A stretch of DNA of 64,000 nucleotides from Oscillospiraceae bacterium (GCA_016282135.1 JAEEKA010000117.1:1611-65610); one strand, 5' to 3'. Shown: positions 3,849 to 31,027, counted from the stretch's first letter. Notes: generated by a model not told the origin, from the letters alone. Numbers and translations: made by a program.

Positions 3849-3886
3849 AACTGCTTTTGGCAATCCATTTGAAACGGGGAAAGGAC

Positions 3887-6283
3887 ATGAAACGAATGAA
3901 ACGCTTTGCGGTGCTGGGCCTGTGCCTGGCCCTGCTCTGCACGGTACTGCCGCAGATGAGCCTGACAGCCCGGGCCGCCACCTACACCGAATTGGGCACG
4001 ATCTCCACGGTGCAGGCCACCGGAACCATTACTGCCCCGACGCTTGGCGGGGACACCGCAAGGCCAAAATTTTCCGTGACCGATCCGACTGATAAAAATG
4101 CAAGCATCGGCATGGTGATTTGGCAGAAAAAAGCGGGATCAAGCTGGCAAGGCTACTACAACGAGACCTTCGAGGAAGGCACCTACCGGCTGGAAGTCCA
4201 GCTCAGGACGGACCATTTTGACGACGGCACCTACTACCGTCTGACCAACGATACGAAGCTCTATATCAACGGAACCGCCTGGACAAAGAACGGCAACCTG
4301 CAAGATTCCTACAGCAGCTCCGGCTACGGCGTCATGTATTTTTTCGGCCGGGAATATGAACTCAAGGTGCCGGCGGGCTGCCACTCGGTCACGGTGCAAA
4401 ACGACGGCCACGGCAAGGGCTCTGCCAGTCCGGTCTACGGCGCGCCCGGCGACGTCATTACCCTGAGCGCGACTCCGAATCAGTATTATCAATTCAAAAA
4501 CTGGGCGGTCCTGTCCGGCGGCGTCACGGTCAACGGCAACCAATTTACCATGGGCAGTCAGGACGTGGTGATCAAGGCCTGCTTTGAGCCGGATAACAGT
4601 TTGGATCTGGGGACGATCTCCCAGGTTCGGGCCAAGGCGAAACGGCCGGTTCCCGTCCTGGGCGAGGCCTATGAGAAGCCGAAGTTTACCATTACGGACC
4701 CCACCGGGAAAAACGTGGAGATTACCATGGGCAGATGGCAAAAGAAATCCGGCTCCACCTGGGAGTACTACAACGGCTCCAGCTTCGAGGCGGGGACCTA
4801 TCGCTACCACACCCAGCTCCGAACTGACCACTTTGACGACGGAACCTATTACCGGCTGACCAACGATACAAAGCTGTACGTCAACGGCGTGGAGTGGACG
4901 AAGGACGGCAATTTGCAGGGTAGCTACAGCGGCTCCGGCTACGGTGTGATGTATTTTTTCGGCCCGGAATATGTGGCGGCCCCGCCGGCTGATTATACCG
5001 TTACCTTTGAGCCCTGCAGCGGCAGCGTATCGCCTGCCAGTATGCGGACGGACAAGTACGGCATGCTGGAGAGTCTGCCCACTCCCGTCCGGGAGGGCTT
5101 CACCTTCACCGGTTGGTTTACTGAGCGAGCCTATGGGGAAAGGGTTACGGAGGAAACCCGCTTCACCGGCAATACCACCCTGTATGCCCATTGGTATGAG
5201 AACTATTATGGGATTACCATCAACGGCGGCAAAGCGGACAGAAGTGCGGCGCCCAGCTGCGCTATCGTCACCATCACCGCCGATTCTCGGGAGAATTGCA
5301 CATTTTCCAAGTGGACGGTGAGCGAGGGCGGCGTGACCCTCGCCGACCCCAACAGTCCCACTACCACCTTCGTCATGGGCCATGAGAACGTCAGAATTTC
5401 CGCAAACTATACCTACAACGGAGAGACAATCGACACGGTATATCTCGATGTAGAGGAGCCCAGAGCGGGCATGACGCCGCCGGATGCCGTGGCGGAATCG
5501 GAGCAGTATCGGGCTGCAAGTACGAGATGGTTCGATTTGGAAACGGAGCGGCAGCTCTCTGCGACGGATACCTTCCAGGCCGGGAAGCAGTACCTGCTCC
5601 GGGTGTATCTCAATACCAGCGTCCCATTCCAGACCGCAGGAATTACAGGGTATGTAAACGGAAGCACCGAGGGCGTCACCGCCATGCCCATGGGCTTTGC
5701 GATGGCTCAGGTGGAAAAGGTTTTCACAGCCAAGCGGGGCAATCCCTTTGTGGACGTGCGTGAGAGCGACTTCTTCTTCAACCCGGTCCTGTGGGCGGTG
5801 GAGAACGGCGTCACCGGCGGCGTGGACGATACCCACTTTGCGCCCCAGCAGACCGTTATGCGATCCGATTCCATGGTCTTCTTCTGGGCTGCCAAGGGCC
5901 GCCCGGAGCACGCCGACAACTCCACGCCCTTCAAGGACGTGAAGCAGACGCACTGGGCTTACAAGGCTGTTATGTGGGCCGTGGAGAACGGCATCACCGG
6001 CGGCACCAACACCGAGGGCACCAAGTTCAGCCCCAAGCGTACCTGCTCCCGCAGTGAGATTCTCCAGTTCCTCTATGCCGCCATGGGCAAGCCGGAAATC
6101 AGCATCGAGAACCCCTACAGCGACGTAAAGGAAAAACACTGGTACTACGAGGGCGCCATCTGGGCCTACGAGTTCGGCCTGGAGAAGGGCGAGGACGGGA
6201 AGTTCAACGCCAAGACTCCCTGCACCCGGGCCTACGTGGTCACCTACCTCTACCGTTTCCTCACCGGAAACGAGCGGGTGTAG
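3887..6283 (+). CDS. Secreted SLH-anchored repeat protein (two copies of an unknown ~125-aa module, InlB-B/Flg_new-like repeats, three SLH)
   Basis: RBS GGGGAAAGGA precedes the ATG at 3887. Signal peptide MKRMKRFAVLGLCLALLCTVLP...ARA. Internal duplication around TDHFDDGTYYRLTNDTKLY. A GFTFTGW...LYAHW Listeria-Bacteroides-type repeat. Three C-terminal SLH motifs (FxDV...W...GIT.G). Confidence 0.85.
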   Translation: MKRMKRFAVLGLCLALLCTVLPQMSLTARAATYTELGTISTVQATGTITAPTLGGDTARPKFSVTDPTDKNASIGMVIWQKKAGSSWQGYYNETFEEGTYRLEVQLRTDHFDDGTYYRLTNDTKLYINGTAWTKNGNLQDSYSSSGYGVMYFFGREYELKVPAGCHSVTVQNDGHGKGSASPVYGAPGDVITLSATPNQYYQFKNWAVLSGGVTVNGNQFTMGSQDVVIKACFEPDNSLDLGTISQVRAKAKRPVPVLGEAYEKPKFTITDPTGKNVEITMGRWQKKSGSTWEYYNGSSFEAGTYRYHTQLRTDHFDDGTYYRLTNDTKLYVNGVEWTKDGNLQGSYSGSGYGVMYFFGPEYVAAPPADYTVTFEPCSGSVSPASMRTDKYGMLESLPTPVREGFTFTGWFTERAYGERVTEETRFTGNTTLYAHWYENYYGITINGGKADRSAAPSCAIVTITADSRENCTFSKWTVSEGGVTLADPNSPTTTFVMGHENVRISANYTYNGETIDTVYLDVEEPRAGMTPPDAVAESEQYRAASTRWFDLETERQLSATDTFQAGKQYLLRVYLNTSVPFQTAGITGYVNGSTEGVTAMPMGFAMAQVEKVFTAKRGNPFVDVRESDFFFNPVLWAVENGVTGGVDDTHFAPQQTVMRSDSMVFFWAAKGRPEHADNSTPFKDVKQTHWAYKAVMWAVENGITGGTNTEGTKFSPKRTCSRSEILQFLYAAMGKPEISIENPYSDVKEKHWYYEGAIWAYEFGLEKGEDGKFNAKTPCTRAYVVTYLYRFLTGNERV
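5741..6283 (+). repeat. SLH-triplet coding cassette, copy 1 (DNA-level similar to 7691-8233 and 30482-31027)
   Basis: Long runs of identical nucleotides are shared with copy 2, for example cagcatcgagaacccctacagcgacgtaaag, and with the ...aagttcaacgccaag... block. Confidence 0.8.
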
Positions 6284-6375
6284 GAGCCATAGCCCAAACC
6301 GCCCCTGTCAGGGGCGGCGGAGGGATCTGCCCGCCGGCCGCACACAGGGCCGGGTGTCATATCAGCTATGCGGCA

Positions 6376-6425
6376 AAATCGCCGTCAGCCGCCGGACTTC
6401 CCGGAGCCTGACGGCGATTTTTTTC
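6376..6425 (+). terminator. Rho-independent terminator after the 808-aa SLH gene
   Basis: 13-bp stem aaatcgccgtcag / ctgacggcgattt followed by a T-run. Confidence 0.7.
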
Positions 6426-6435
6426 TGCCGCGCTC

Positions 6436-6464
6436 TTGCTTTTTTGGTTCGACTCTGTTAGAAT
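6436..6464 (+). promoter_or_regulatory. Sigma-A-type promoter with extended -10
   Basis: TTGCTT, a 17-nt spacer, then TGtTAGAAT, about 50 nt upstream of the 6515 start. Confidence 0.5.
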
Positions 6465-6514
6465 GATACTATCGGAAATTGTATGTTGATACATGCACAG
6501 AAGGAGGAAACATC

Positions 6515-8233
6515 ATGAAAACAATCAAGCATTGGATCGCCCTGGCCCTGTGCCTGGCGCTGATCTGCTCCCTTCTGCCCCCCATGACCCTGACTGCCAG
6601 CGCGGCGACCTATTCCGGGGAATGCGGCGCGGAGGGCGACAATTTGACCTGGACGTTGGATACGGGCTCCGGCGTGCTGACCATTTCCGGCAGCGGTGAG
6701 ATGGCGGATTTTGAGGAAGGCGCCGCGCCCTGGAACGAGTACTGCGAAAGCATTACCTCGATCGTATTTCCTGCGGGCCTGACCGGCATTGGCTGGAATG
6801 CCTTCTCCGGCTGCACCGGCCTGACTGCGCTCAACCTGCCCGGCAGCCTGCGGACGATCGGCGGCTTTGCCTTCTCCGGCTGCACCGGCATCACCGGCGT
6901 CACCATTCCCACGAGCCTGACGCTTTTGGGCGAGTACGCGTTCTCCCGCACCGGCGTCACTGCCGTCACCATTCCGGGGAACCTGACAGGCACCGGAGAT
7001 GGCGTTTTTGCCGACTGTGCCAATCTGATCGGCGTTACCATCCAGAACGGCGTGACCGGTATCAATGCCTACGCCTTCAAGGGCTGCGCCAATCTGACGG
7101 AGCTTTCCCTCCCGAACACCCTGCTCGCCATCGACCAGGAAGCCTTCCGGGACTGCACCGGTCTGACCGGCGTTTCCTTCCCCGGAAGCCTGGAGACCAT
7201 CGGCGAGAAAGCCTTCTACGGCTGCACCGGCCTCACCGGCCTCAGTCTTCCCACCAGCCTGACGCGCCTGGGCAGACGGGCGTTCTACGGCTGCTCCGGT
7301 CTGACCAGCCTGAATCTCCCGGGAAGCCTTCTGACCGTTCCCGAGTTTGCGTTTTTCGGCTGCACCGGTCTGACCAGACTCACCCTCCCGGAGGGCATGG
7401 AAAACCTTGAGGAAAGCGCCTTTGAGGGCTGCACCGGTCTGACCGAGCTCACGATTCCGTCGAGTCTCACCAGCATCGGCTGGTACGCCTTCCTGAACTG
7501 CCCTGCCATGAGCTCCGTGACGATTCCGGAAACGGTAACCGAGGTGGGCGGCAAGGCCTTTGGCTTCCTGAGCGACGAGCTCGGCATCACCACCAAAATT
7601 GAAGACTTCAAAATCATCGGCGTGGTGGGCAGCGCGGCCCAGACCTACGCGGAGGAATACGGCTTCACCTTTGAGCCCCTCGGGCAGGTCAACCCCTTTG
7701 TGGACGTCAGTGAGGATGACTTCTTCTTCAAGCCCGTCATGTGGGCGATTGCCAACCAGGTCACCGCCGGCGTGGACGATACCCACTTCGGCCCCGAGCG
7801 CACCGTTATGCGTGCGGACTCCATGGTCTTCTTCTGGGCGGCCAACGGGCGCCCGAGCGTGGAAGCCCAAAGCCACTTCAAGGATGTGAAGAAGAACCAC
7901 TGGGCCTATGCGGCTGTTACCTGGGCGGTGGAGAACGGGATTACCGGCGGCACCGACGAGGCCGGCACCCGGTTCAGCCCCCAGCGGACCTGCACCCGCA
8001 GTGAGGTCCTCCAGTTCCTCTACGCAGCCATGGGCAAACCGGCAATCAGCATCGAGAACCCCTACAGCGACGTAAAGCCCAAACACTGGTACAGGGACGG
8101 CGCCATCTGGGCCTTTGAAAACGGCCTGGAAAAGGGCGAGAACGGTAAGTTCAACGCCAAGACCCCCTGCACCCGCGCCTACGTGGTGACCTATCTGTAT
8201 CGCTACTTCACCGGAGACCTGCTGGATCAGTAG
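6515..8233 (+). CDS. Secreted BspA-type leucine-rich-repeat protein with three C-terminal SLH modules
   Basis: RBS AAGGAGG at 6501-6507. Signal peptide MKTIKHWIALALCLALICSLL. About 14 tandem ~23-aa units of the form AFxGCTGLTxLxLPxSLxxIGxxAF (LRR_5/BspA style), then the SLH triplet. Confidence 0.85.
   Translation: MKTIKHWIALALCLALICSLLPPMTLTASAATYSGECGAEGDNLTWTLDTGSGVLTISGSGEMADFEEGAAPWNEYCESITSIVFPAGLTGIGWNAFSGCTGLTALNLPGSLRTIGGFAFSGCTGITGVTIPTSLTLLGEYAFSRTGVTAVTIPGNLTGTGDGVFADCANLIGVTIQNGVTGINAYAFKGCANLTELSLPNTLLAIDQEAFRDCTGLTGVSFPGSLETIGEKAFYGCTGLTGLSLPTSLTRLGRRAFYGCSGLTSLNLPGSLLTVPEFAFFGCTGLTRLTLPEGMENLEESAFEGCTGLTELTIPSSLTSIGWYAFLNCPAMSSVTIPETVTEVGGKAFGFLSDELGITTKIEDFKIIGVVGSAAQTYAEEYGFTFEPLGQVNPFVDVSEDDFFFKPVMWAIANQVTAGVDDTHFGPERTVMRADSMVFFWAANGRPSVEAQSHFKDVKKNHWAYAAVTWAVENGITGGTDEAGTRFSPQRTCTRSEVLQFLYAAMGKPAISIENPYSDVKPKHWYRDGAIWAFENGLEKGENGKFNAKTPCTRAYVVTYLYRYFTGDLLDQ
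7691..8233 (+). repeat. SLH-triplet coding cassette, copy 2
   Basis: See copy 1. Most positions are identical by eye over the last ~250 nt. Confidence 0.8.
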
Positions 8234-8329
8234 GGCCGCTCGAAAGCCGCATTTATCGTGCAGTGCGGGCAATTTGTCCGCCTGCTCGCCGTAACGAAAA
8301 AGGACTTGCCGTTGGCAAGTCCTTTTTCG

Positions 8330-9628
8330 TTACGGGCTAAACAGCCGGAACAGGTAGGTCACCACGTAGGCTCTGGCGCAGGGCTCCCTGGGACAAAGCA
8401 GGGTCGGATCGTCGCCGCCTTCGTTGCCCACCGGCACGCCGTTGGCCGCGGCCCACAGCACAGCCTGGTAGTAGTACTTGCTCGGCTTGACGTCGGCGTA
8501 GGGGAACTCTATGCCCTCCGGGACCTCCCGGCCAAAGGCGGCCCAGAGGAAGGTAAGCATATCCTCCCGCATTACCCGGGCCTCCGGGGAGAAGCGATCC
8601 GCTCCGGTCCCGCCGGTGATCCCGTTCTCCACGGCCCAGAGCACCGGGATATAGTAAAAGGCGTTTGGGGAGACGTCCCGGAAGGGATTCTCTTCGGCGG
8701 CGGGCTCCGGCCGTCCGGCGGCGGCCCAGAGGAAGGTCACGGCTTCGCCCCGGGTCACGGCGTCCTCCGGGGAGAAGGTGCTGGGGGAGCTGCCGCCGGT
8801 GATTTCCTTTTGCCAGGCCCAAACGATTGCCTCCCTGGCCCAGTGCCCGGGGAAGGGAAGGTCAGTAAAGGGGGTGGGATTGTCCTCCGGCCCGGCGGGA
8901 AGCTGCAGCGTGTTGACAAGGAAGTTGTACACCTTTTTCCGTCCGCTCAGGTAGTTGCGGATGGAGGAATGGGTTTTGGAGGCCTCCAGCACCCCGTTGT
9001 GGAATTCGTCCAGAGAATCGACAGTATCCCCTTCCGCTTTTCCCAGGGCTTCCCGGACGTACCGCATGAAGTAGGAAACTCCGCCCTCGCCGTATTGGTG
9101 CTCCGCCGCGCAGTAGTAGAGCAGGGCGGATTCTGTCCGCACGCCCCGGTTCCAGCCGTGTTGGGCCTCCTCCATGATGAATTCCCGGGCGTATTGGTTC
9201 TGACAGTCGATGCCCACCGGGGAGCCGATCAATGCCCGGACTGCGGCGGCTTCGGCAGCGGTGAGGACCCGGTTCTTCCAGCCGCCGCCGTTGGTGCTGG
9301 ACCAGAGCGGGGTCTGGGTGACTTCGTTGTACAGGGCGCTGCCCAGAAGGGCCTTTGCCTCAGCAGGGGCGGCCTCGCAGATTCGCTTCAGCAGGCGCAG
9401 GGCATACACCCCGTGCCATTGCAGGAAGCCGATGCTCAGGGCGTTGGAATCCCGGGGGTTGACGGAGTCGTAATTCCCCTCCAGCGCCAGGTACAGTTCC
9501 AGGGCGTGAGCCGTCAGGGCTTCGAGATCGACGCTGGTTTCCAGGGCGGACTCCGCAGCCAGGGCATTGGGAACAAGCGCGGCGCAGAGGCACAGCGTCA
9601 GCAGAAGGGCGATAATTTTTCGCTTCAT
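8330..9628 (-). CDS. Secreted SLH-anchored protein with an N-terminal lysozyme-like / lytic-transglycosylase-like domain (tentative), paralog A
   Basis: Signal peptide MKRKIIALLLTLCLCAALVPNALA. The N-domain has LEGNYDSV...LSIGFLQW...YYCAAEHQYGEGG, reminiscent of the E...G-L-M-Q...AYN pattern of SLT/GH46-like folds. Three C-terminal SLH. A clear paralog of 12915-14294. Confidence 0.75.
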   Translation of the reverse strand: MKRKIIALLLTLCLCAALVPNALAAESALETSVDLEALTAHALELYLALEGNYDSVNPRDSNALSIGFLQWHGVYALRLLKRICEAAPAEAKALLGSALYNEVTQTPLWSSTNGGGWKNRVLTAAEAAAVRALIGSPVGIDCQNQYAREFIMEEAQHGWNRGVRTESALLYYCAAEHQYGEGGVSYFMRYVREALGKAEGDTVDSLDEFHNGVLEASKTHSSIRNYLSGRKKVYNFLVNTLQLPAGPEDNPTPFTDLPFPGHWAREAIVWAWQKEITGGSSPSTFSPEDAVTRGEAVTFLWAAAGRPEPAAEENPFRDVSPNAFYYIPVLWAVENGITGGTGADRFSPEARVMREDMLTFLWAAFGREVPEGIEFPYADVKPSKYYYQAVLWAAANGVPVGNEGGDDPTLLCPREPCARAYVVTYLFRLFSP

Positions 9629-9697
9629 AGAAACCTCGCTTTCCTAAGATTTCGGTGAGTGTGAATGGGAAAACGATACCGGTATCATTTCGTAACC

Positions 9698-9726
9698 ATC
9701 TTAGCACAGCCCCGGCCGGGAAGCAA
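9698..9726 (-). promoter_or_regulatory. Promoter of SLH paralog A (extended -10)
   Basis: On the minus strand: TTGCTT, a 17-nt spacer, then TGcTAAGAT. It lies inside a 28-nt block conserved with the paralog B upstream region. Confidence 0.5.
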
Positions 9727-9768
9727 GCAAAGTCGTTCCAAATGATTCGAGGGGAATCGGGTGGGAAA

Positions 9769-9807
9769 CAAAAAAAGGGTGCTTTTCCCGCCGGGAAAAG
9801 CACCCTT
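9769..9807 (-). terminator. Rho-independent terminator of the MBOAT-DHHW operon
   Basis: On the minus strand: AAGGGTGCTTTTCCC-GGC-GGGAAAAGCACCCTT followed by TTTTTTTG. Confidence 0.8.
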
Positions 9808-9832
9808 CGACACAATGCGGTTACTTAAAGAA

Positions 9833-11317
9833 TTATTTCATGATATCCTGCAGCTTGCTGGAGCCGATGAAGCTAATGTTTTGGCATAGGATCACGTCCT
9901 GAATCCCCTCCCGCTCCACCAAAGCGGAGATAGTGGGCGTGTAGCCCATCTGATTACACCACTTTGCGTAGTAGCGGAAGTCGACCCAGTAGACGTGCTC
10001 GTAGTGGTCGATCAGGAAGGGAATGAAGGCGTTGGCGTAGGAGTCTTTTATCACCAGTACCGAGGAGCCGTCGGTGATCTCCTCGTTGTGAGCGTGGGCG
10101 TAGGGGGGATCGCCGCCTGCAAAGGTGCCGTACAATTCACTGCGCGGATAACTGGAGACGTCGTTGACGATCCGCCAACTGTATTCGTTGTAGTGATCGC
10201 TGTTGTATTTCGTGTAGAAAGTCATCGAATTGGTGCCGTTTGGCACGTAGGCGTACACGGTGTCCGGGTTTTTGGCCATGGAGGGGTCTTTGCCGGATTT
10301 GGAATAAAAAGTTCCCAGGAAGCCTTCAAAGGTGTAGGTTTTTTCAAAGAAGTCCAACTCGTGGGGCGTGATACCCTTGACTTTGCACCATTCCCGGTAG
10401 GCGTAGTAGGCGCCCAAGGCCGTCCAGTGGTGGTCGGTGCGGAAGAAGATATACTCGTCGTTGTGAGCCTTCAGGGTGTTGACCATGGAGACGGTCTTTA
10501 CCGAGGCATCCATGTTCTGATAGATCCATTCCGCTGCCTTGGCTTCGTCGGAGCAGCCGATTTTATTTCGTGTTTCCTCTGAGAGCATCACGCCTGCGGA
10601 GATGGGGCACAGCATGCAGTAGAGTTGGGCCTTGCCCTCCAGATTCTTGGCAAGCTGATTTGTTTTCCGGCAGTAATCTTCAGAGTCGGACTGGTTAAAA
10701 TAGTAAACGCCGTAGCCCGCACCGTTCAGAAGATAAATGTCATCTACCTGAGTCGCGTCTCCGTCCACATCCGCAGCGCCGTGGCCGCTGTATTCCGTTG
10801 TCTCGGGGGTGGCGGGCTCAGTGGTGACGGGGGTGCTGCCGTTGTCTGTGTGGACCGGCTGGCTGGGGTTGGTGCTCGCGGGGGGCTCGCTCGCTTCCGT
10901 GGTGTCCTTCCCAGCTTGGGCCGCCAGGGCTTCCAGGTCCACGGTGCCGGTGGGAATCTCGTCGGCGGTGCCGCCATTGACGAGCCGCTCGCTGCGATCA
11001 CCATAGTGGCTTTGCAGCTTGGTGTTCAAATCAATCAGCTGCTCCCGGAAGGGGTAGGTATCGGCATACCAGGTGGACAGGCCCCTCGGGTGCAGTGGAT
11101 CGGATTCATCGTTGAAGAAGGTTCCGTCCATGAGACCTTCCAGTGTCAGCTTGGGAAATTCCGTCAGATTTCGCTTTTCGAGCTGGGAGTCTGTGGGGCG
11201 GAAGAACCAGAGCAGACCGATCAGGCAGCCGATGGCCAGTAAACCGAAGAATAAGAGCTGCTTGATCTGAATGGTGAGAAAACGGGATTCCTGGTATTCT
11301 TGTTTGGTCGGTTTCAT
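9833..11317 (-). CDS. DHHW-family protein (AlgJ/AlgX-like extracytoplasmic acyltransferase partner of MBOAT)
   Basis: Contains the family-defining FFRTDHHWT motif. N-terminal TM anchor, and a Thr/Pro/Glu-rich linker. RBS AAAGGAG overlaps the end of the upstream MBOAT gene. Confidence 0.85.
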   Translation of the reverse strand: MKPTKQEYQESRFLTIQIKQLLFFGLLAIGCLIGLLWFFRPTDSQLEKRNLTEFPKLTLEGLMDGTFFNDESDPLHPRGLSTWYADTYPFREQLIDLNTKLQSHYGDRSERLVNGGTADEIPTGTVDLEALAAQAGKDTTEASEPPASTNPSQPVHTDNGSTPVTTEPATPETTEYSGHGAADVDGDATQVDDIYLLNGAGYGVYYFNQSDSEDYCRKTNQLAKNLEGKAQLYCMLCPISAGVMLSEETRNKIGCSDEAKAAEWIYQNMDASVKTVSMVNTLKAHNDEYIFFRTDHHWTALGAYYAYREWCKVKGITPHELDFFEKTYTFEGFLGTFYSKSGKDPSMAKNPDTVYAYVPNGTNSMTFYTKYNSDHYNEYSWRIVNDVSSYPRSELYGTFAGGDPPYAHAHNEEITDGSSVLVIKDSYANAFIPFLIDHYEHVYWVDFRYYAKWCNQMGYTPTISALVEREGIQDVILCQNISFIGSSKLQDIMK

Positions 11318-11330
11318 AGCGGCTCCTTTC

Positions 11331-12770
11331 TCAGAACTGGAAGTACAGGAAGGGGTTGAAGCTGTTTCCCGCCAGAGCCATGGTGGACAGGAACAGCAGA
11401 AGTACCGGCAGGGCGGCGTCCAGTACGTTGTAGACGTGGAGCCAAACCAGGTTCTGACGGCTTAGGTTTTTCAGCATACTGCCAATGTGCTTGCTGATGG
11501 GCGTCACCGCAAAAATGCAGAAGATCAGGAAGTAGGCGTTGTTCGCAAAGACGGTGCTGTTGCCGGTGAGGGGGTTGCCGTTCAGACCGAACAGACCCTT
11601 GAGGGCGGCCCAGAGCTGCCCGATATCTTCAAACTTGAAGATGACCCAGCCGAACATCACAATCAGCATGGTAATCATGTGACGGAGGGGCTTGGCGATC
11701 CGCCCGGTGTCCACCTTGTATTTCTCAATCACCAGGAAGACGAAGTAGTACAGACCCCAGAGAATGTAATTCCAACTGGCGCCGTGCCACATGCCGGTGA
11801 GGCCCCAGACCACCAGAAGGTTGAGAATATGACGGCTCTTGGAGCAGCGGTTGCCTCCCAGGGGAATATAGACGTAGTCCCGGAAAAAGGTGGACAGGGA
11901 GATATGCCAGCGCCGCCAGAAATCCGTGACGGAATCCGCTGTGTAGGGATAATTGAAGTTTTCCTTGTAGTGGAAGCCGCACATCAGGCCCATGCCGATG
12001 GCCATGTCCGAATAGGCGGAGAAGTCCAGATAGATTTGCAGGGTAAAAGCGATCATCACCAGCCACATACCGATCACGGAGGTCCCCTCCACAAGCGCTG
12101 TGGTGAGGGGGTCGCCTTTGCCGAGGCCCAGCGCGCCGTTTACGACGGCGGCGCAGCCGTTGGCCAGAATGGCTTTCTTGGCAAGGCCCACTGCAAAGCG
12201 GGTGATGCCCCGGCTCAGCTCCGCCATCTTGACCTTGCGGTGGAGGATGTCGTGGTTCACGTCCCGGTAGCGGACAATGGGACCGGCGATGCACTGGTGG
12301 AAGAGGCTGGCGTAGAGCAGCAGCAGCCAGTATTTCTCCTGAACCTCCGCGTCGCCCCGGTACACGTCAATGACGTAGGACAGCAGCTGGAAGGAGTAGA
12401 AGCTGATGCCGATAGGCAGGATAATATTTGGAATCACTTCCGGCACCCCAAACAGGGTCTGGAAGTTCCGCAGGAAGAAGCCGGTGTACTTGAAGATTCC
12501 CAGGACCAGCAGCACTACCGCCACACAGCCAATGAGGATGTTTTTCTTCTCCCGTTGAATTTTGCGGCGGGAAATCAGCAGGGCACCGTACCAGCAGACA
12601 AAGGTCAGTCCCAGCATAATCGCAAGACAGCCAAGGCCCGCGCAGGAATAGAAGACCAGGGAGAAGGCGAGCATCACGATATTCTTTTTGCGGATATCAG
12701 GCATCAGGGCCTGGGCAATGTAATTGGCGATGAAAAAAACAAACAGGAAAAACAGACTGGAAAAAACCAA
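11331..12770 (-). CDS. MBOAT-family membrane O-acyltransferase (AlgI/DltB/PatA-like)
   Basis: 479 aa and polytopic. Conserved FWRRWHISLSTFFRDYVYIPLGGNR block with the catalytic His. TTG start with RBS AGGAGG 7 nt upstream. Confidence 0.9.
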   Translation of the reverse strand: MVFSSLFFLFVFFIANYIAQALMPDIRKKNIVMLAFSLVFYSCAGLGCLAIMLGLTFVCWYGALLISRRKIQREKKNILIGCVAVVLLVLGIFKYTGFFLRNFQTLFGVPEVIPNIILPIGISFYSFQLLSYVIDVYRGDAEVQEKYWLLLLYASLFHQCIAGPIVRYRDVNHDILHRKVKMAELSRGITRFAVGLAKKAILANGCAAVVNGALGLGKGDPLTTALVEGTSVIGMWLVMIAFTLQIYLDFSAYSDMAIGMGLMCGFHYKENFNYPYTADSVTDFWRRWHISLSTFFRDYVYIPLGGNRCSKSRHILNLLVVWGLTGMWHGASWNYILWGLYYFVFLVIEKYKVDTGRIAKPLRHMITMLIVMFGWVIFKFEDIGQLWAALKGLFGLNGNPLTGNSTVFANNAYFLIFCIFAVTPISKHIGSMLKNLSRQNLVWLHVYNVLDAALPVLLLFLSTMALAGNSFNPFLYFQF

Positions 12771-12829
12771 GGCAAGGCCTCCTCTTGCGGAAATACGCGC
12801 ATTCCCGGAGATTTTTGCATACTTCTGCT

Positions 12830-12858
12830 ATTATATTACACAAGCTTCCGATTTGCAA
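12830..12858 (-). promoter_or_regulatory. Promoter of the MBOAT-DHHW operon
   Basis: On the minus strand: TTGCAA, a 17-nt spacer, then TATAAT. Confidence 0.55.
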
Positions 12859-12888
12859 CAAAAAACCGCCGAAATTCGGCGGTTTTTG
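12859..12888. terminator. Bidirectional-looking terminator after SLH paralog B
   Basis: aaaaaaCCGCCGAAattTCGGCGGttttt: a hairpin flanked by an A-run and a T-run. Confidence 0.75.
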
Positions 12889-12914
12889 TGAGGAGGAATG
12901 AAACGGGAGACGGA

Positions 12915-14294
12915 TCATACAAATCCGTTCATGAAGCTCATGAAATAGTGATACAGATAGGTCACCACGTAGGCGCGGTTGCAGAGCTGCATCGGGTTCA
13001 GCGTGGTTTCGGTGCCCTCGTTGCCCACCAGGATGCCGTCGTTATAAGCCCAGATCACTGCGTCGTAGAAGAACTTGCCCTTGGTTACGTCGGAGAAGGG
13101 ATTCTCATTGTTCAGGGACTGGGGGCGTCCTGCAAAGGCCCAGAGGAAGGTGAGCATTTCAGCCGTGGTGACGGGGGCATTGGGAGAATAGGTAGTGCCG
13201 TCGCCGGTACCGGCGGTGTAGCCGTTCTCTACGGCCCACAGCACGGAGTCGCGGAACCAGTCCTTTTTCTTGACGTCCCGGAAGGGATTCTCCTCGGAAA
13301 GGGGTTCCGGGTGTCCCGCGGCGGCCCAGAGGAAGGTCATGGCCTGGGCGCGGGTCAGGGTTCCGTCAGGGGAAAAGGTGGTGGCGGAGGTGCCGGCGGT
13401 GATTTGCGGGGTGCTGGTGTAGGCCCAGATAATCGCGTCATAGGCCCAGTGATCCGGGTCGGGCAGATCGGTGAAGGGAATCTCCGGCTCCGTCGGATCG
13501 GCGGGATCGGTGGGCTCCGTGGGCTCCGGGGGGTTTACCTCCGGCCCGGAGGGGAGGCCCAGGGTCTCGGTCAGGTACTTGTAGACCTTCGTGCGGTAAT
13601 TCAGGGTGCTGACATTTGCCAGCACAGCGCCCTGGTGGAACTGGTCCAGAGAGAGGATCAGATCGTTTTCGCTGAGACCGAGGGCGTTCCGAACGGCACT
13701 CATGAAAGACTTCACGTTGCCCTCGCCGTAGTGATTTTCGGCGGAGCAGTAGTAGATCAGGGCGGCTTCGGTGCGTACGCCCGCGTTCCAGCCGTGCTGG
13801 GCCTGGGTCAGGATGTAGCATTTTGCCAGGGCGCGCTGCCCGCGGATGCCTACCTCGGAGCCCAGCAGGGTCTTTGCGGCAGCCAGCTCAGCGGAGGAGA
13901 AGCTGCGGTATCTCCAGTAGTTCCATTTCGGCATCAGCGTGTCAGGGACTGCCACGGGCGCGTTGACCACTTCGCTGTACAGCTCGTCGCCCAGAACAGA
14001 TCTGCAATATTCGGGATCGCCGCCCTTTTCGGGGCTGGCGCACCATTTCAGAAGCTGCAGGGCGGAGGAGCCGATCCAGCCCATGATGCCCATACCCACG
14101 CAGCCTGCGCTGGTGTTGACGACGCTGTCATACTTATCTCCGGCCTCCAGGCGCATGAACATGCTGGTAGCGTGTTCGACAAGCTGGTCCAGATCGACGC
14201 TGTTCTGCAGCGTCGCTTCTTCCGCACCGACCGTGGGCACAAGGCTCGCAAACAGGCAGAGCACAAGCAGAACGGCGATGAATTGTTTTCTCAT
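12915..14294 (-). CDS. Secreted SLH-anchored protein with a lysozyme-like N-domain (tentative), paralog B
   Basis: Signal peptide MRKQFIAVLLVLCLFASLVPTVGA. The N-domain is colinear with paralog A (LEAGDKYDSV...GMGIMGW...YYCSAENHYGEGN). A PEPTEPTDPADPTEPE linker, then three SLH. Confidence 0.75.
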   Translation of the reverse strand: MRKQFIAVLLVLCLFASLVPTVGAEEATLQNSVDLDQLVEHATSMFMRLEAGDKYDSVVNTSAGCVGMGIMGWIGSSALQLLKWCASPEKGGDPEYCRSVLGDELYSEVVNAPVAVPDTLMPKWNYWRYRSFSSAELAAAKTLLGSEVGIRGQRALAKCYILTQAQHGWNAGVRTEAALIYYCSAENHYGEGNVKSFMSAVRNALGLSENDLILSLDQFHQGAVLANVSTLNYRTKVYKYLTETLGLPSGPEVNPPEPTEPTDPADPTEPEIPFTDLPDPDHWAYDAIIWAYTSTPQITAGTSATTFSPDGTLTRAQAMTFLWAAAGHPEPLSEENPFRDVKKKDWFRDSVLWAVENGYTAGTGDGTTYSPNAPVTTAEMLTFLWAFAGRPQSLNNENPFSDVTKGKFFYDAVIWAYNDGILVGNEGTETTLNPMQLCNRAYVVTYLYHYFMSFMNGFV

Positions 14295-14367
14295 AAGTTC
14301 CTCACTTTCTGATTTTGAGCAATCAGGGTAGAGACCGAAATGACGAATTTGGTATCATTTCGTAACT

Positions 14368-14396
14368 ATTTTAGCACATTTGTTTTCTCTTTGCAA
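14368..14396 (-). promoter_or_regulatory. Promoter of SLH paralog B (extended -10)
   Basis: On the minus strand: TTGCAA, a 17-nt spacer, then TGcTAAAAT. It overlaps the 28-nt block conserved with paralog A. Confidence 0.55.
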
Positions 14397-14665: not shown

Positions 14666-15160
14666 ATGAAAAAGCTGCTGTTTGTCCTGCTTGCGGCGGC
14701 GGTGCTCGGGACTTTGGGGCTGCTGCCCTTCCGGGCTGTGGACGCCGCGAAGCTGCTGCCTGTGAAGACGATAATCGTGACAAAGTCGGGAGAGGAATAT
14801 ACCGTGGACATCGGCGCGGGGGTGCGGGCTGTGGGGCGGAGCCTGCGGGAGGCCCTGGACCGGCTCCGGGAGGAGGTCACGGGCGAGGTGTTCCTGCCCA
14901 CTGCGGAACAGGTGGTAATCACGGAGCCGGGAGACGAGGCTGTGGAGGCGGTGGCGGAGGAGACCGAATTTCGTCCGGCGGCGGGAATTTACCGAACCCC
15001 GGAGCCCTTTCCGGACGCAAAGGCCCTGGGCGCTTACCTGGAGTCCCACCCTTCCAACGTGACGATTCTGGACGTGCGGGCTGCCCTGGCTCTGGGGCAG
15101 AGGCCGAGGGTTCCGGTGATCCGTGCCGCGGACGGCGGCTTCCGAGTGGATGATGAATAG
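14666..15160 (+). CDS. Small secreted/membrane-anchored hypothetical protein (faint GerxC-N-terminal-like pattern)
   Basis: RBS GGAGG 10 nt upstream. N-terminal hydrophobic segment MKKLLFVLLAAAVLGTLGLL. No confident family assignment. Confidence 0.55.
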   Translation: MKKLLFVLLAAAVLGTLGLLPFRAVDAAKLLPVKTIIVTKSGEEYTVDIGAGVRAVGRSLREALDRLREEVTGEVFLPTAEQVVITEPGDEAVEAVAEETEFRPAAGIYRTPEPFPDAKALGAYLESHPSNVTILDVRAALALGQRPRVPVIRAADGGFRVDDE

Positions 15161-15971
15161 CTGCAGGGACAGGATCTCCGCCCGGCAGCTGGGGGCCCTG
15201 GCTTTGAGCTCCAGCGGGGTGCCGGTGTTTCGGTTTTGCTGCCGGATCCCCTGGCTTTGGACCTTGCTGGGAGCGGGAGCCGCCGCGCTGACCCTGTCCG
15301 GCCTGACCCTGCTGCTGAACCGGAGAGGAGGGCGCAGGCTGAGGCCTTGCCGCCTTTGGGCGCTGACGCCCATCCTGACGGTGGGCGGAGCGGCCACGGC
15401 CTGGGTGGGCAGCTTTGCCTTCCCGGAGACGGCGGGCAATTGGCTGGCAGCCCTGCTGCTCTTTGGATTGGCTGCTGCGGCGGCGCGGATCGGTCCCGCT
15501 GCCGCAGGCCGCTGCGCGGGGATCCTGCTCTGGACCACCGGGGTGCTCTATGGGATCGTTTTGTTGTTCAGCCTCCCCCAGGTTCATCCGGCATGGCTGC
15601 TGCCCCGGAGCGGTTCCCCGGCGGACGCGGCAAAGGTCTGGGCCGCCATGCTGATCCCCGGGGGGGCCCTTTGTCTCACGGACGCCCTGGGAGAGGACCA
15701 GAAGCTGCCCCATTGGCCTTGGTGGGCCGCGGCGTTGACTGCCGCGGCGGCCTCGGCGGTCACAGGCGGAATCCTTTCGCCTGCTCTGGCGGGGGAGCGG
15801 GAGGCCTTTCGCACCCTGGCCAGGGGCGTCTCCGTTCTGGGCGTCATGCGCCGGTTCGAAGCCCTGGTCAACGGGGCGATGCTGATGAGCGCCTTTTGCC
15901 TCAGCGCCATGCTTCTGACGGCGGCCTGGAAAAACCGGAAAAGAGACTGTAAGCAAGGCAGTATTCAATAA
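15150..15971 (+). CDS. Polytopic membrane protein (faint GerAB-like features), translationally coupled to the upstream gene
   Basis: ATGATG at 15150 overlaps the upstream stop. N-terminal ...ISARQLGALAL... and a C-terminal ...RRFEALVNG... segment recall spore-germination GerAB permeases, but the protein is shorter. Very GC-rich. Confidence 0.5.
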   Translation: MMNSCRDRISARQLGALALSSSGVPVFRFCCRIPWLWTLLGAGAAALTLSGLTLLLNRRGGRRLRPCRLWALTPILTVGGAATAWVGSFAFPETAGNWLAALLLFGLAAAAARIGPAAAGRCAGILLWTTGVLYGIVLLFSLPQVHPAWLLPRSGSPADAAKVWAAMLIPGGALCLTDALGEDQKLPHWPWWAAALTAAAASAVTGGILSPALAGEREAFRTLARGVSVLGVMRRFEALVNGAMLMSAFCLSAMLLTAAWKNRKRDCKQGSIQ

Positions 15972-16039: not shown

Positions 16040-16044
16040 AAAAA

Positions 16045-16143
16045 CACTCTTCGGGGAGCCGGACCCATCCGGCTGAGACTGAGCGAAAACGGCGCTCTCA
16101 CCCGTGAACCTGATACGGATCATGCCGTCGTAGGAAAAGGGTG
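16045..16143 (+). promoter_or_regulatory. TPP (THI-box) riboswitch aptamer
   Basis: Contains the conserved GGGGAGCC...GGCTGAGA...ACCCGTGAACCTGATACGGATCATGCCGTCGTAGGAA core. The P1 helix pairs cactctt with aagggtg. The downstream gene is a thiamine transporter. Confidence 0.85.
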
Positions 16144-16159
16144 CTTCTCCTCTGATTTG

Positions 16160-16203: not shown

Positions 16204-16767
16204 GTGAAAACCCAAAACAGAAGCACCATTCGAACCATGGTGGAGGGCGGCGTCTGCATCGCCCTGTGCATTGCCCTGAGCTATCTCAAAATTCCCATTG
16301 GCCTGGAATTTGGCGGCTTTGGCGGCTCCATTGACCTGGTGATGATCCCGCTGATTATTTTCGCCATGCGCTCCAACGCGCTTTGGGGACTGGGAGCCGG
16401 CCTGGTTTTTGGCACCCTCAAGTTCATCTTTGCCAACGGCGCGGCCATTGACTGGGTCTCTATCATCTTTGACTATTCCGTAGCCTATTCCATGGTTGGC
16501 CTTGCCGGTCTGTTCCATAAGCGCTCCAAGCTGGTGCCCCTGGCCGCTCTGGTTGGCTGCCTGGGCCGCTTCGCGATCCACTTCATCAGCGGCGTGACGG
16601 TTTACGCCAAGTATCTGCCCGATTCGTTCATGGGCGTTGAAAAGCCCTCCGTGGCGCTGTATTCTCTGCTGTACAACGGCACCTATATGCTGCCCAACAC
16701 CGTTCTGGCCGTGGTGGTCTGCGCCGCGCTTCTGGCGGTCCCTGGCATTTACAAGAAGTCGGAGTGA
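16204..16767 (+). CDS. thiT: Thiamine ECF-transporter S component ThiT
   Basis: 187 aa, 6-TM small membrane protein directly behind a TPP riboswitch. GTG start with RBS AAAGGAGG. Confidence 0.8.
   Translation: MKTQNRSTIRTMVEGGVCIALCIALSYLKIPIGLEFGGFGGSIDLVMIPLIIFAMRSNALWGLGAGLVFGTLKFIFANGAAIDWVSIIFDYSVAYSMVGLAGLFHKRSKLVPLAALVGCLGRFAIHFISGVTVYAKYLPDSFMGVEKPSVALYSLLYNGTYMLPNTVLAVVVCAALLAVPGIYKKSE

Positions 16768-19201: not shown

Positions 19202-31027
<11,826 letters not shown>

What the first reader, a model, noticed from the sequence alone, without database searches (positions are those of the whole stretch)
8330..14396. MBOAT + DHHW O-acyltransferase operon bracketed by two paralogous SLH-anchored lysozyme-like genes
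Seen in sequence:
- A two-gene operon, MBOAT (11331-12770) and DHHW (9833-11317), with its own promoter and terminator.
- It lies exactly between two monocistronic paralogs (8330-9628 and 12915-14294). Each encodes a signal peptide, a colinear ~230-aa N-domain and three SLH.
- The N-domain carries LE(G/A)xxDSV ... G(F/I)(L/M)(Q/G)W ... YYC(A/S)AE(H/N)(Q/H)YGEG, which resembles the Glu...GLMQ...AYN layout of lytic-transglycosylase/GH46-like lysozyme folds. This is weak, by-eye similarity.

Established knowledge: MBOAT plus periplasmic SGNH/AlgX-like partner pairs (PatA/PatB, AlgI/AlgJ, DltB/DltD) O-acylate peptidoglycan, alginate or teichoic acids. O-acetylation of MurNAc blocks lysozymes and lytic transglycosylases. 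SLH modules bind secondary cell-wall polymer.

Inference: a self-contained wall-polymer O-acylation module coupled to two wall-anchored glycan-cleaving or glycan-sensing enzymes. Neither the substrate nor the role of the flanking paralogs has been described, to my knowledge.
Basis: partly seen in the sequence, partly recalled or inferred. Interest (0 to 1): 0.6.

Follow-up and report, generated by a model that had tools for sequence, protein, structure and literature searches.

The report
Wall acetylation genes between lysozyme-like paralogs
An uncultured rumen bacterium keeps a two-gene cell-wall sugar acetylation system next to genes for wall-anchored proteins whose front half is predicted to fold like a lysozyme or chitosanase. 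That front half belongs to a widespread protein family that no database has named.

Summary
All four genes sit at the stated coordinates on the minus strand, in three transcription units.

- **Acetyltransferase pair:** the MBOAT+DHHW pair is PatA1/PatB1-like. The DHHW protein matches B. cereus PatB1, the only characterised DHHW enzyme, which O-acetylates secondary cell-wall polysaccharide.
- **Flanking paralogs:** they are 46% identical, and each has a signal peptide, a ~225-aa N-domain and three SLH repeats. The N-domain has no Pfam, NCBIfam or PDB sequence match.
- **Predicted fold:** two AlphaFold models (pLDDT 90 and 95) both find GH46 chitosanases first, then T4 lysozyme.
- **Wider family:** 352 clusters. 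Distant members fuse the domain to peptidoglycan-binding modules and to known wall hydrolases. This fits a wall-glycan hydrolase module.
- **New detail:** downstream P0001 keeps the family's Glu/Asp/Ser signature. Upstream P0002 belongs to a derived, monophyletic clade that kept the Glu but lost the Asp and Ser.
- **Synteny:** this derived clade is followed by MBOAT(-DHHW) in 15 of 18 informative contigs. The full four-gene bracket occurs only in a subset.
- **Regulation:** all N-domain genes share a conserved promoter and leader block. The MBOAT promoter is different.

Substrates and functional coupling remain inferred. I rate it a new variant of a known kind.

The parts
12915..14294 (-). P0002 (459 aa), the upstream paralog. 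It has a signal peptide (14223-14294), a lysozyme/GH46-like N-domain (13545-14222) of the derived type, a Pro/Thr/Glu linker and three SLH repeats (about 12915-13478). The derived type keeps Glu50, but Ser62, Gly67, Gly72 and Ile74 replace the family's Asp, Ser, Gln and His.
14351..14396 (-). Promoter-like site of P0002 (TTGCAA, 17 nt, TAAAAT with an upstream TG) followed by a 16-nt leader block at 14351-14366. The block is identical upstream of P0001.
12860..12886 (-). Intrinsic-terminator-like hairpin and T-run directly after the P0002 stop codon.
   Evidence: read from the sequence; the consensus scan missed it
12830..12858 (-). Promoter-like site of the MBOAT-DHHW operon (TTGCAA, 17 nt, TATAAT; 10 of 12 positions match). 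It lacks the paralogs' leader block.
11331..12770 (-). MBOAT membrane O-acyltransferase (479 aa, TTG start with a GGAGG ribosome-binding site). It is PatA/AlgI/DltB-like. The W-H motif lies at residues 288-289 (window 11892-11915 covers RRWHISLS).
9833..11317 (-). DHHW-family SGNH-like O-acetyltransferase (494 aa). It has an N-terminal hydrophobic segment read as a membrane anchor (residues 21-39), a low-complexity linker, and the motifs TDHHW (294-298), KDSYANA (424-430) and VDFRYY (445-450). It is homologous to B. cereus PatB1 and to EUBSIR_00411 (4NZK).
   Evidence: PMC9487903
9774..9808 (-). Strong intrinsic terminator (16-bp stem, T-run) after DHHW.
9681..9726 (-). Promoter-like site of P0001 (TTGCTT, 17 nt, TAAGAT with an upstream TG) and the same 16-nt leader block at 9681-9696.
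8330..9628 (-). P0001 (432 aa), the downstream paralog. It has a signal peptide, an N-domain (8894-9556) of the canonical family type (Glu50, Asp60, Ser65, Gln70, His72) and three SLH repeats (about 8330-8872).
8293..8327 (-). Intrinsic-terminator-like hairpin and T-run after P0001.
   Evidence: read from the sequence
14666..15971 (+). Divergently transcribed, overlapping gene pair: a ~164-aa protein with a hydrophobic, signal-like N-terminus (14666-15160) and a ~273-aa hydrophobic, apparently membrane protein (15150-15971). The pair lies upstream of the N-domain gene in most relatives. No family match was found and the function is unknown.

Best explanation
**Acetyltransferase pair (well supported).** Genes 11331-12770 and 9833-11317 form a two-gene operon for an extracytoplasmic glycan O-acetyltransferase of the PatA1/PatB1 type.
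- The polytopic MBOAT carries acetyl from a cytoplasmic donor across the membrane.
- The membrane-anchored DHHW (SGNH-like) enzyme transfers it to a hydroxyl of a cell-wall glycan.
- My odds for the acceptor: SLH-binding secondary cell-wall polysaccharide about 45%, peptidoglycan about 30%, another surface polysaccharide about 25%.

**Flanking genes (fold and context shown; activity inferred).** The two flanking genes are tandem-duplicate descendants. They encode secreted proteins held on the wall by three SLH repeats. Their N-domain belongs to an unnamed sequence family with a predicted lysozyme-superfamily fold closest to GH46. It most likely cleaves wall glycan strands.
- P0001 keeps the family signature: a Glu at the end of helix 1, then Asp-x4-Ser in the following beta-hairpin. 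I predict it is an active hydrolase.
- P0002 belongs to a derived clade that kept the Glu and the other family-conserved residues (inferred to line the cleft) but lost the Asp and Ser. I predict a changed mechanism or specificity (single-acid, lytic-transglycosylase-like or substrate-assisted), or loss of hydrolysis with binding retained.

**Coupling (inferred).** The derived clade is the one that stays next to the acetyltransferase pair. Acetylation of the wall glycan would then tune either where these SLH proteins are retained or which glycan they can bind or cut.
For: **Genes and units:**

**DHHW/MBOAT identity.**
- Pfam DHHW 1.5e-93.
- PDB hits 4NZK at 1e-35 and B. cereus PatB1 (5V8D) at 1e-8. 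The DHHW motif, the nucleophile Ser and the D-x-R-[YH] block align.
- Motif roles and PatB1 activity come from PMC9487903. MBOAT/SGNH pairs as a general mechanism come from PMC12148441.

**N-domain fold.**
- Models have pLDDT 89.8 and 94.7.
- Foldseek against PDB puts GH46 chitosanases in the top 6 and top 9 places (probability 0.97-1.0, TM 0.50-0.59, best E 9e-4), then T4 lysozyme.
- The viral library top hits are endolysin, CHAP, peptidase and chitosanase proteins, with TM up to 0.69.

**Family context.**
- 352 representative clusters.
- Fusions to GH25, Amidase_2, NlpC/P60, PG_binding_1, SH3, LysM, choline-binding, CW_7, M23, M15 and holin.

**Conserved residues and the two motif types:**. 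Real GH46 sequences show the same D-x4-T-I-G-I hairpin. The derived clade is monophyletic, 100/100 support.

**Synteny.** Derived-clade paralog followed by MBOAT(-DHHW) in the window, L001, L002, L004, L018, L021, L022, L024, L036, L037, L038 group, L041, L042, L043 and L046.

**Other.**
- Only two N-domain copies in the genome, both here.
- Pyruvyl transferases, needed for SLH ligands, are present.
- Precedent for polysaccharide acetylation affecting SLH-protein retention: PMC7759979.
Against: - No activity was tested.
- The fold assignment rests on predicted structures with moderate TM (about 0.55) and high rmsd.
- Sequence-level relation to GH46 is not detectable: hhalign probability is below 1%.
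- I could not superpose coordinates, so the catalytic roles of the Glu and Asp are inferred from position and conservation only.
- The Glu-to-Asp spacing is 9-11 residues, against 17 in GH46.
- The three units have separate promoters and terminators, and the MBOAT promoter lacks the paralogs' leader block.
- Three relatives carry the derived paralog without the pair (L017, L023, L047), so coupling is not obligatory.
- The genome has about 8 MBOAT and about 6 DHHW genes, so the acceptor cannot be deduced from family alone.
- Twenty-one of 105 distant members carry dockerins, which could point to an exogenous polysaccharide substrate.
- All syntenic contigs come from one narrow rumen lineage, so shared ancestry alone can explain some of the conservation. 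Only 5 of 251 sampled genomes of the family have the domain.
Confidence: 0.55

Rival explanations
1. Neighbourhood without functional coupling. The acetyltransferase operon was inserted into, or lost from, a tandem pair of surface-protein genes in a region rich in SLH-protein genes. The order persists only by vertical inheritance in a narrow lineage.
For: - The transcription units are separate and the promoters differ.
- L023 has the two paralogs adjacent with no pair. L017 and L047 have the derived paralog without it.
- L002 and L041 tolerate a 2-kb insert between the paralog and MBOAT. In L002 it is a TrpB-like gene.
- The window carries several other SLH genes.
- The domain is rare in the family.
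Against: - Fifteen of 18 informative contigs keep derived paralog followed by MBOAT, across paralog identities of 52-85%.
- The genome's only two N-domain copies flank this one of about 6 DHHW genes.
- The change of hairpin motif coincides with the clade that shows the linkage.
Confidence: 0.3
2. The N-domain is a true chitosanase-like enzyme acting on an exogenous or non-peptidoglycan glucosamine-rich polymer, for example fungal wall chitosan in the rumen, or the bacterium's own secondary polysaccharide. It would not act on peptidoglycan.
For: - The best structural matches are GH46 chitosanases.
- Dockerin is the most frequent partner domain, in 21 of 105 members.
- LysM also binds chitin (established knowledge).
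Against: - Partner domains are dominated by peptidoglycan-directed modules and enzymes: PG_binding_1, SH3, choline-binding, CW_7, Amidase_2, GH25, NlpC/P60, M23, M15 and holin.
- Phage lysin-type proteins are the best viral structural matches.
- There is no sequence membership in GH46.
Confidence: 0.15
3. P0002 is not an enzyme at all. It is a pseudo-glycosidase that binds the (acetylated) glycan, acting as a wall-anchored lectin, a sensor, or an accessory partner that presents the polymer to the DHHW transferase.
For: - The hairpin Asp, Ser, Gln and His are at least 90% conserved in distant members but lost throughout the derived clade. The Glu and the other family-conserved residues remain.
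- No alternative acidic residue is conserved in the hairpin. Position 56 alternates between Asp and Asn.
- The derived clade is linked to the pair.
Against: - The presumed acid Glu50 stays invariant in the clade, which a pure binding module would not need.
- Single-acid glycan-cleaving enzymes exist in the same superfamily (lytic transglycosylases; established knowledge).
- P0002 has its own promoter and terminator.
Confidence: 0.25

Closest known systems
PatA1/PatB1 (and PatA2/PatB2) of Bacillus cereus and B. anthracis: an MBOAT + DHHW pair that O-acetylates secondary cell-wall polysaccharide
   Same: - An adjacent MBOAT and DHHW gene pair.
- The DHHW protein aligns to the PatB1 structure with the DHHW, Ser and D-x-R-[YH] blocks.
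- The organism displays many SLH proteins and has pyruvyl transferases.
- In B. anthracis, loss of patA1/patA2 releases SLH proteins, including BslO (PMC7759979).
   Different: - The relation to PatB1 is remote (E = 1e-8). The nearest solved relative is the uncharacterised EUBSIR_00411 (4NZK, 1e-35).
- This genome has about 6 DHHW and about 8 MBOAT genes, so orthology and acceptor are open.
- Here the pair sits physically beside SLH-anchored lysozyme-like genes.
GH46 chitosanases (for example Streptomyces N174 CsnA, 1CHK; Bacillus subtilis Csn)
   Same: - Predicted two-lobed, mostly helical lysozyme-superfamily fold of the same size.
- Top structural matches for both paralogs.
- The canonical family members share a hairpin Asp-x4-[Ser/Thr]-Ile-Gly motif with real GH46 sequences.
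   Different: - No detectable sequence homology: Pfam PF01374 is silent and hhalign probability is below 1%.
- The Glu-to-Asp spacing is different.
- Partner domains point to bacterial walls rather than chitosan.
- P0002 lacks the Asp.
Modular peptidoglycan hydrolases and phage endolysins (T4-lysozyme-like/GH24, GH25, GH73; SLH-anchored BslO of B. anthracis)
   Same: - Architecture of a catalytic domain plus a wall-binding module.
- Distant family members carry PG_binding_1, SH3, LysM, choline-binding and SLH modules, and second lytic domains.
- T4 lysozyme and phage lysins appear among the structural matches.
   Different: - The domain belongs to none of the named lysozyme families. There is no Pfam, NCBIfam or PHROG match for the domain itself, and databases call these proteins hypothetical or SLH proteins.
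- Activity is untested.
O-acetylpeptidoglycan (OAP) clusters of Gram-negative bacteria (PatA, PatB, Ape1) and their control of lytic transglycosylases
   Same: The logic is the same: an MBOAT-dependent O-acetylation system is genomically associated with enzymes whose action on glycan strands is gated by O-acetyl groups (PMC12148441, PMC6174289).
   Different: - The transferase here is a DHHW protein, not the PatB (DUF459) family.
- There is no Ape-type esterase in the locus.
- The organism is a Gram-positive-type Oscillospiraceae bacterium.
Clostridial cellulose synthase locus (ccsA/B/Z with the CcsH/CcsI MBOAT/DHHW pair)
   Same: An MBOAT/DHHW pair is conserved beside a cognate glycoside hydrolase of the modified polymer (PMC7710045).
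   Different: - No polysaccharide synthase lies in this locus.
- The hydrolase-like genes are SLH-anchored lysozyme-like proteins, not GH5.

Membership tests
DHHW family / PatB1-type polysaccharide O-acetyltransferase | Pfam PF14286 match above the curated cut-off | tested here: met
   314.5 bits against a cut-off of 25, covering profile positions 1-385
DHHW family / PatB1-type polysaccharide O-acetyltransferase | Sequence blocks of BcPatB1: the DHHW block, the nucleophile Ser and the D-x-R-Y block with the oxyanion Arg | tested here: met
   TDHHW 294-298, KDSYANA 424-430 and VDFRYY 445-450 align to the corresponding PatB1 blocks. Block roles come from PMC9487903.
DHHW family / PatB1-type polysaccharide O-acetyltransferase | Partner MBOAT gene adjacent, in the same operon | tested here: met
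   MBOAT at 1.2e-26, a 13-nt gap, a shared promoter and terminator. The adjacency is conserved in relatives.
DHHW family / PatB1-type polysaccharide O-acetyltransferase | The acceptor is secondary cell-wall polysaccharide | not testable with these tools
   Context only: SLH proteins and pyruvyl transferases are present. About 6 DHHW paralogs in the genome leave the acceptor open.
DltB/DltD teichoic acid D-alanylation | DltB equivalog score, and DltA/DltC/DltD partners | tested here: not met
   TIGR04091 scores 142.5 bits against a cut-off of 375. The partner is DHHW, not DltD, and no DltA or DltC lies in the neighbourhood.
GH46 chitosanase | Sequence membership (Pfam PF01374, or profile-profile similarity) | tested here: not met
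   No Pfam hit at E <= 0.1. PF01374 finds nothing in the whole genome. hhalign against real GH46 sequences gives probability 0.2-0.3%.
GH46 chitosanase | Fold: two-lobed helical lysozyme-like domain with a beta-hairpin after helix 1 | tested here: met
   For predicted models only. GH46 entries fill the top 6 places and top 9 places, with probability 0.97-1.0 and TM 0.50-0.59. Secondary structure shows helix 11-26 followed by a hairpin.
GH46 chitosanase | Catalytic Glu (acid) and hairpin Asp (base) with Asp-x4-Thr | tested here: inconclusive
   P0001 and at least 90% of distant members have Glu...Asp-x4-Ser-Ile-Gly. GH46 has Glu-x17-Asp-x4-Thr-Ile-Gly. The spacing differs, no coordinates were available for superposition, and P0002 lacks the Asp and Ser.
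Peptidoglycan hydrolase catalytic modules (functional class) | Occurs as the candidate catalytic module next to wall-binding modules or other lytic domains | tested here: met
   Partners seen: PG_binding_1 in 19, SLH in 16, SH3_3 in 14 and LysM in 7 members, plus choline-binding, CW_7, Amidase_2, M23, M15_4, holin, GH25 and NlpC/P60. The domain is N-terminal in 160 of 195 proteins.
Peptidoglycan hydrolase catalytic modules (functional class) | Cleaves peptidoglycan glycan strands | not testable with these tools
   Needs zymograms or muropeptide analysis.
SLH-anchored surface proteins | Three SLH repeats, and a pyruvyl transferase in the genome | tested here: met
   SLH at 1e-17 and 1e-20, with alignment to the Sap SLH domain structure. 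Three repeat starts were located in each protein. PS_pyruv_trans occurs twice in the genome.
OAP cluster (PatA/PatB/Ape) | PatB (DUF459)-type transferase and an Ape esterase in the cluster | tested here: not met
   The transferase is DHHW/AlgX-like. No esterase gene lies between 8 and 16 kb.

The most novel reading that the evidence does not exclude
The N-domain founds a new glycoside-hydrolase-like family of the lysozyme superfamily. Its derived clade has lost the general-base Asp and has co-evolved with a dedicated MBOAT-DHHW acetyltransferase. In this reading P0002 specifically recognises or cleaves the O-acetylated wall glycan, by a single-acid, lytic-transglycosylase-like or substrate-assisted mechanism. 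Alternatively it presents the glycan to the transferase. The locus would then be a writer-plus-reader/cutter module for a wall-glycan acetyl mark. Its expression would be governed by the conserved leader block and perhaps by the conserved divergent membrane-protein pair.
Probability: 0.15. Interest if true: 0.75.

Novelty: new variant of a known kind. Interest (0 to 1): 0.5.

Why it matters
- **An unnamed family.** Its fold and domain partners mark it as a likely cell-wall glycan hydrolase, yet databases list it only as "hypothetical" or "SLH protein". It has 352 clusters at 50% identity, spread over many domain architectures in the proteins and phage structures searched. Naming and assaying it would add a lysozyme-type family to the catalogue used to annotate autolysins and endolysins.
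- **A natural experiment.** Within one lineage there is a canonical paralog and a paralog without the presumed base. Only the latter's clade is tied to a PatA1/PatB1-like O-acetyltransferase. This makes a concrete question testable: how does O-acetylation of wall polymers control SLH-anchored wall enzymes? That link is known genetically in B. anthracis but is mechanistically unresolved.
- **Limits.** The organism is an uncultured rumen bacterium, and the general logic (MBOAT/SGNH acetylation, SLH anchoring, lysozyme-like hydrolases) is established.

Tried and rejected
- **Family searches of the N-domain:** Pfam, NCBIfam and PHROGs found nothing for the domain itself. The PHROG hits of one distant member were mainly on its C-terminal part, which resembles LysM.
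- **PDB sequence searches:** single-sequence and profile searches found only SLH for the full protein and nothing significant for the domain.
- **hhalign against GH46:** I fetched real GH46 genes from other genomes and compared profiles in global and local modes. Nothing was significant. The greedy local alignment was colinear and paired the hairpin Asp/Ser with the GH46 Asp/Thr, but at probability 0.3% it is not evidence.
- **Model coordinates:** they are not exposed to the Python box, so I could not superpose models or measure active-site geometry.
- **Metagenome scan:** I repeated it with A1.
- **Literature:** the Lunderberg et al. 2013 paper (PMC3571321) is not held. Its content is cited only through reviews.
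- **Leader block:** I considered by eye whether it is a WalR-type box (TGTWAH-N5-TGTWAH). It does not fit. Rfam finds nothing there.
- **Divergent gene pair:** I looked for a family match, including germinant-receptor-like ones. There was no Pfam, NCBIfam or PDB match.
- **DltB/DltD reading of the pair:** rejected.

Full report
**1. Observation**

- 8330-9628: P0001, 432 aa
- 9833-11317: P0003, 494 aa
- 11331-12770: P0004, 479 aa, TTG start
- 12915-14294: P0002, 459 aa

Family matches:
- P0003 matches Pfam DHHW at 1.5e-93 over the whole profile, and also AlgX.
- P0004 matches MBOAT at 1.2e-26.
- P0004's DltB equivalog score is far below cut-off: 142 against 375 bits.

P0001 and P0002 are colinear paralogs: 46% identity, E = 2e-133. 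Each has a signal-peptide-like N-terminus, a ~225-aa N-domain and three SLH repeats.

Sequence signals support three transcription units:
- Promoter-like sites lie at 14396-14368 and 12858-12830.
- A 16-bp-stem terminator lies at 9808-9774.
- Hairpins followed by T-runs lie right after P0002 (about 12886-12860) and after P0001 (8327-8293).

**2. The acetyltransferase pair**

- P0003's best solved relatives are EUBSIR_00411 (4NZK, 1e-35) and B. cereus PatB1 (5V8D/5V8E, 1e-8). The DHHW block, the Ser of the K-D-S-x-A-N-A block and the D-x-R-[YH] block all align.
- According to PMC9487903, PatB1 is the only characterised DHHW enzyme. It O-acetylates secondary cell-wall polysaccharide together with the MBOAT PatA1. 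The review gives the DHHW, Ser and Arg blocks as its active-site blocks.
- PMC12148441 describes the general MBOAT/SGNH relay.
- P0004 carries the MBOAT W-H motif and relates to DltB structures only remotely.
- I therefore read the pair as an active PatA1/PatB1-type glycan O-acetyltransferase.
- The acceptor is not deducible. The genome is a 2.5-Mb, 85.6%-complete MAG with about 6 DHHW and about 8 MBOAT genes.
- It also has two pyruvyl transferases and many SLH proteins in this window. An SLH-binding pyruvylated polymer therefore probably exists.

**3. The N-domain**

Sequence searches:
- There is no Pfam, NCBIfam or PHROG family for it, and no PDB sequence or profile match.
- Close homologues (48 clusters) are all SLH proteins from rumen Oscillospiraceae metagenomes, named at best "S-layer homology domain-containing protein".
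- A profile search of 1.84 billion representatives finds 352 clusters at E <= 1e-3 and 203 at E <= 1e-10, with many architectures.

Domain partners:
- Ten sampled distant members fuse the domain to GH25, Amidase_2, NlpC/P60, PG_binding_1, choline-binding repeats, SH3, SLH or dockerin.
- Among 105 members the partners are Dockerin_1 (21), PG_binding_1 (19), SLH (16), SH3_3 (14) and LysM (7). Singletons or small counts include CW_7, choline-binding, Amidase_2, M23, M15_4 and a holin.
- The domain is N-terminal in 160 of 195 proteins.
- Public names are "hypothetical protein".
- This is the context of a catalytic module of wall hydrolases.

**4. Fold**

- AlphaFold2 on the P0002 N-domain (7-sequence alignment) gave pLDDT 89.8.
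- On the P0001 N-domain (41-sequence alignment) it gave pLDDT 94.7.
- Both models show a long helix (11-26), then a beta-hairpin, then a helical body.
- Foldseek against PDB returned GH46 chitosanases in the first six places for P0002 (probability 0.97-1.0, TM 0.50-0.57).
- It returned GH46 chitosanases in the first nine places for P0001 (probability 1.0, best E 9e-4, TM 0.51-0.59), followed by T4 lysozyme.
- Against predicted viral structures the best matches were a "PlyB like endolysin" (TM 0.69), CHAP and peptidase proteins, and phage GH46/chitosanase entries.
- Sequence membership in GH46 fails. PF01374 is silent on these proteins and on the whole genome. hhalign against real GH46 genes fetched from other genomes is insignificant.

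**5. Conserved residues and two motif types**

Numbering follows P0002. These residues are 94-100% conserved across 129 full-coverage members: Glu50, Gly69, Trp73, Ala78, Glu108, Trp127, Arg130, Glu136, Gln153, Gly172, Tyr181, Gly190, Arg234 and Tyr238. Asn187 is 93% conserved.

- Glu50 sits at the C-terminal end of helix 1, before the hairpin. That is the classical position of the lysozyme-type acid.
- In the distant members, Asp62, Ser67 and Gly69 are at least 90% conserved. Real GH46 sequences show Glu-x17-Asp-x4-Thr-Ile-Gly-Ile. The family consensus is Glu-x9-11-Asp-x4-Ser-Ile-Gly.
- P0001 has this canonical pattern: Glu50, Asp60, Ser65, Gln70 and His72 in its own numbering.
- P0002 has Glu50 but Ser62, Gly67, Gly72 and Ile74.
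- A maximum-likelihood tree places all E-S-G-G-I proteins in one clade with 100/100 support. An E-D-G-G-R group groups with it in a weakly resolved (93/93) larger clade, and the canonical E-D-S-Q-H proteins lie outside.
- No other acidic hairpin residue is conserved in the derived clade. Position 56 alternates between Asp and Asn.
- Inference: P0001 is a plausible acid/base hydrolase. P0002 has either changed mechanism or specificity, or lost hydrolysis while keeping the other family-conserved residues.

**6. Synteny**

| Arrangement | Contigs |
|---|---|
| Derived paralog followed by MBOAT(-DHHW), as far as the contig reaches | window, L001, L002 and L041 (with a 2-kb insert, TrpB-like in L002), L004, L018, L021, L022, L024 (E-D-G-G-R type), L036, L037, L038/L039/L048, L042, L043, L046 |
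| Derived paralog without the pair | L017 and L047 (other SLH genes nearby, including an SLH-GDSL lipase in L017); L023 (the two paralogs directly adjacent) |
| Full bracket (paralog-MBOAT-DHHW-paralog) | window, L001, L022, L038 group, L042; partly L050 |
| Canonical-type relative (P0049) with no pair nearby | L015/L016 |

- The conserved core is therefore derived paralog + MBOAT + DHHW, and the second paralog is optional.
- The genome's only two N-domain copies are these two.
- The domain is rare in the GTDB family: 5 of 251 sampled genomes and 3 of 134 genera at E <= 1e-10. All of this evidence therefore comes from a narrow rumen lineage.

**7. Regulation and neighbours**

- Both paralogs carry the same block. 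It is a -35 CTTGC(A/T), a 17-nt spacer, an extended -10, then a 16-nt leader that is identical in the two copies. The leader occurs nowhere else in the window, and zero matches are expected by chance.
- The block recurs with at most two changes upstream of an N-domain gene in every related locus examined at that point, down to about 50% protein identity. The second (P0001-like) copies in L022 and L023 gave no match.
- The MBOAT promoter lacks it, and Rfam finds nothing there.
- The paralogs therefore share a conserved control element that the acetyltransferase operon does not have.
- Upstream and divergent lies an overlapping pair: a ~164-aa protein with a hydrophobic, signal-like N-terminus and a ~273-aa hydrophobic, apparently membrane protein.
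- This pair is conserved in L015, L018, L021, L022, L023 and L024, and matches no family.

**8. Mechanism proposed, and its status**

- *Well supported:* gene identities, the transcription-unit signals, the motif content of DHHW and MBOAT, the predicted fold, the family context, the motif split and the synteny.
- *Inferred, step 1:* the MBOAT relays acetyl outward, and the anchored DHHW enzyme acetylates a wall glycan. My odds are secondary polysaccharide about 45%, peptidoglycan about 30%, other about 25%.
- *Inferred, step 2:* P0001 cuts wall glycan strands with Glu50 and Asp60.
- *Inferred, step 3:* P0002 acts differently, as a single-acid enzyme or a binder.
- *Inferred, step 4:* acetylation tunes retention or substrate access of these SLH proteins.
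- *Precedents:* patA1/patA2 mutants of B. anthracis fail to retain EA1, BslO and BslA (PMC7759979). OAP clusters gate lytic transglycosylases (PMC6174289, PMC12148441). The clostridial ccs locus pairs MBOAT/DHHW with a cognate hydrolase (PMC7710045).
- *Rivals:* neighbourhood without coupling (0.3); a non-peptidoglycan or chitosan-like substrate (0.15); P0002 as a pseudo-enzyme (0.25, which partly overlaps the main reading).

**9. Verdict**

The fold and the conservation hold. Equivalence of the two paralogs, strict bracketing and lack of precedent do not.
- I rate it a new variant of a known kind. It is a known acetylation system and a known anchoring mode, next to an unnamed lysozyme-superfamily family whose derived clade (without the presumed base) is linked to the acetyltransferase.
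- Interest is 0.5.

Noticed in passing
window 9681-9726 and 14351-14396 (minus strand); also upstream of N-domain genes in L001-L004, L015-L018 and L021-L024: A promoter plus a 16-nt leader block is conserved upstream of N-domain genes in every related locus then examined, down to about 50% protein identity. It is absent from the MBOAT promoter. It is probably an operator or a 5' leader element for an unknown regulator. It does not fit a WalR box by eye, and it has no Rfam match.
   Followed up: partly
window 14666-15160 and 15150-15971 (+): An overlapping pair, a ~164-aa protein with a signal-like N-terminus and a ~273-aa GC-rich hydrophobic (apparently membrane) protein, is transcribed divergently from P0002. 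It is conserved in that position in at least six related contigs, including one without the acetyltransferase pair. There is no Pfam, NCBIfam or PDB match.
   Followed up: partly
window 16042-16153 (+): A TPP riboswitch (70 bits, above the gathering score) lies in front of the ThiT-like thiamine transporter gene at 16204-16767.
   Followed up: no
L023 1152-3986: One relative has the two paralogs directly adjacent with no MBOAT-DHHW between them. The pair is therefore a cassette gained or lost between tandem duplicates.
   Followed up: partly
L017 7442-9049: In a relative that lacks the MBOAT-DHHW pair, the derived-type paralog lies next to an SLH-anchored GDSL/SGNH lipase-like protein. This could be a wall-bound esterase or acetyltransferase.
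   Followed up: no
L002 3760-5340 and L041: A 2-kb insert sits between the paralog and MBOAT in two contigs. In L002 it is a TrpB-like gene. The insert shows that the paralog and the operon need not be contiguous.
   Followed up: partly
window 3857-8233 and 19196-31027: The region is dense in SLH-anchored surface proteins: an InlB-repeat protein, a BspA-type LRR protein, and a 3,943-aa S8 protease with cleaved-adhesin modules.
   Followed up: no
L001 against the window: In the nearest relative, MBOAT and DHHW are 97% and 95% identical to the window's proteins. P0001 is 90% identical and P0002 only 74%. The upstream paralog therefore evolves much faster than its neighbours.
   Followed up: no
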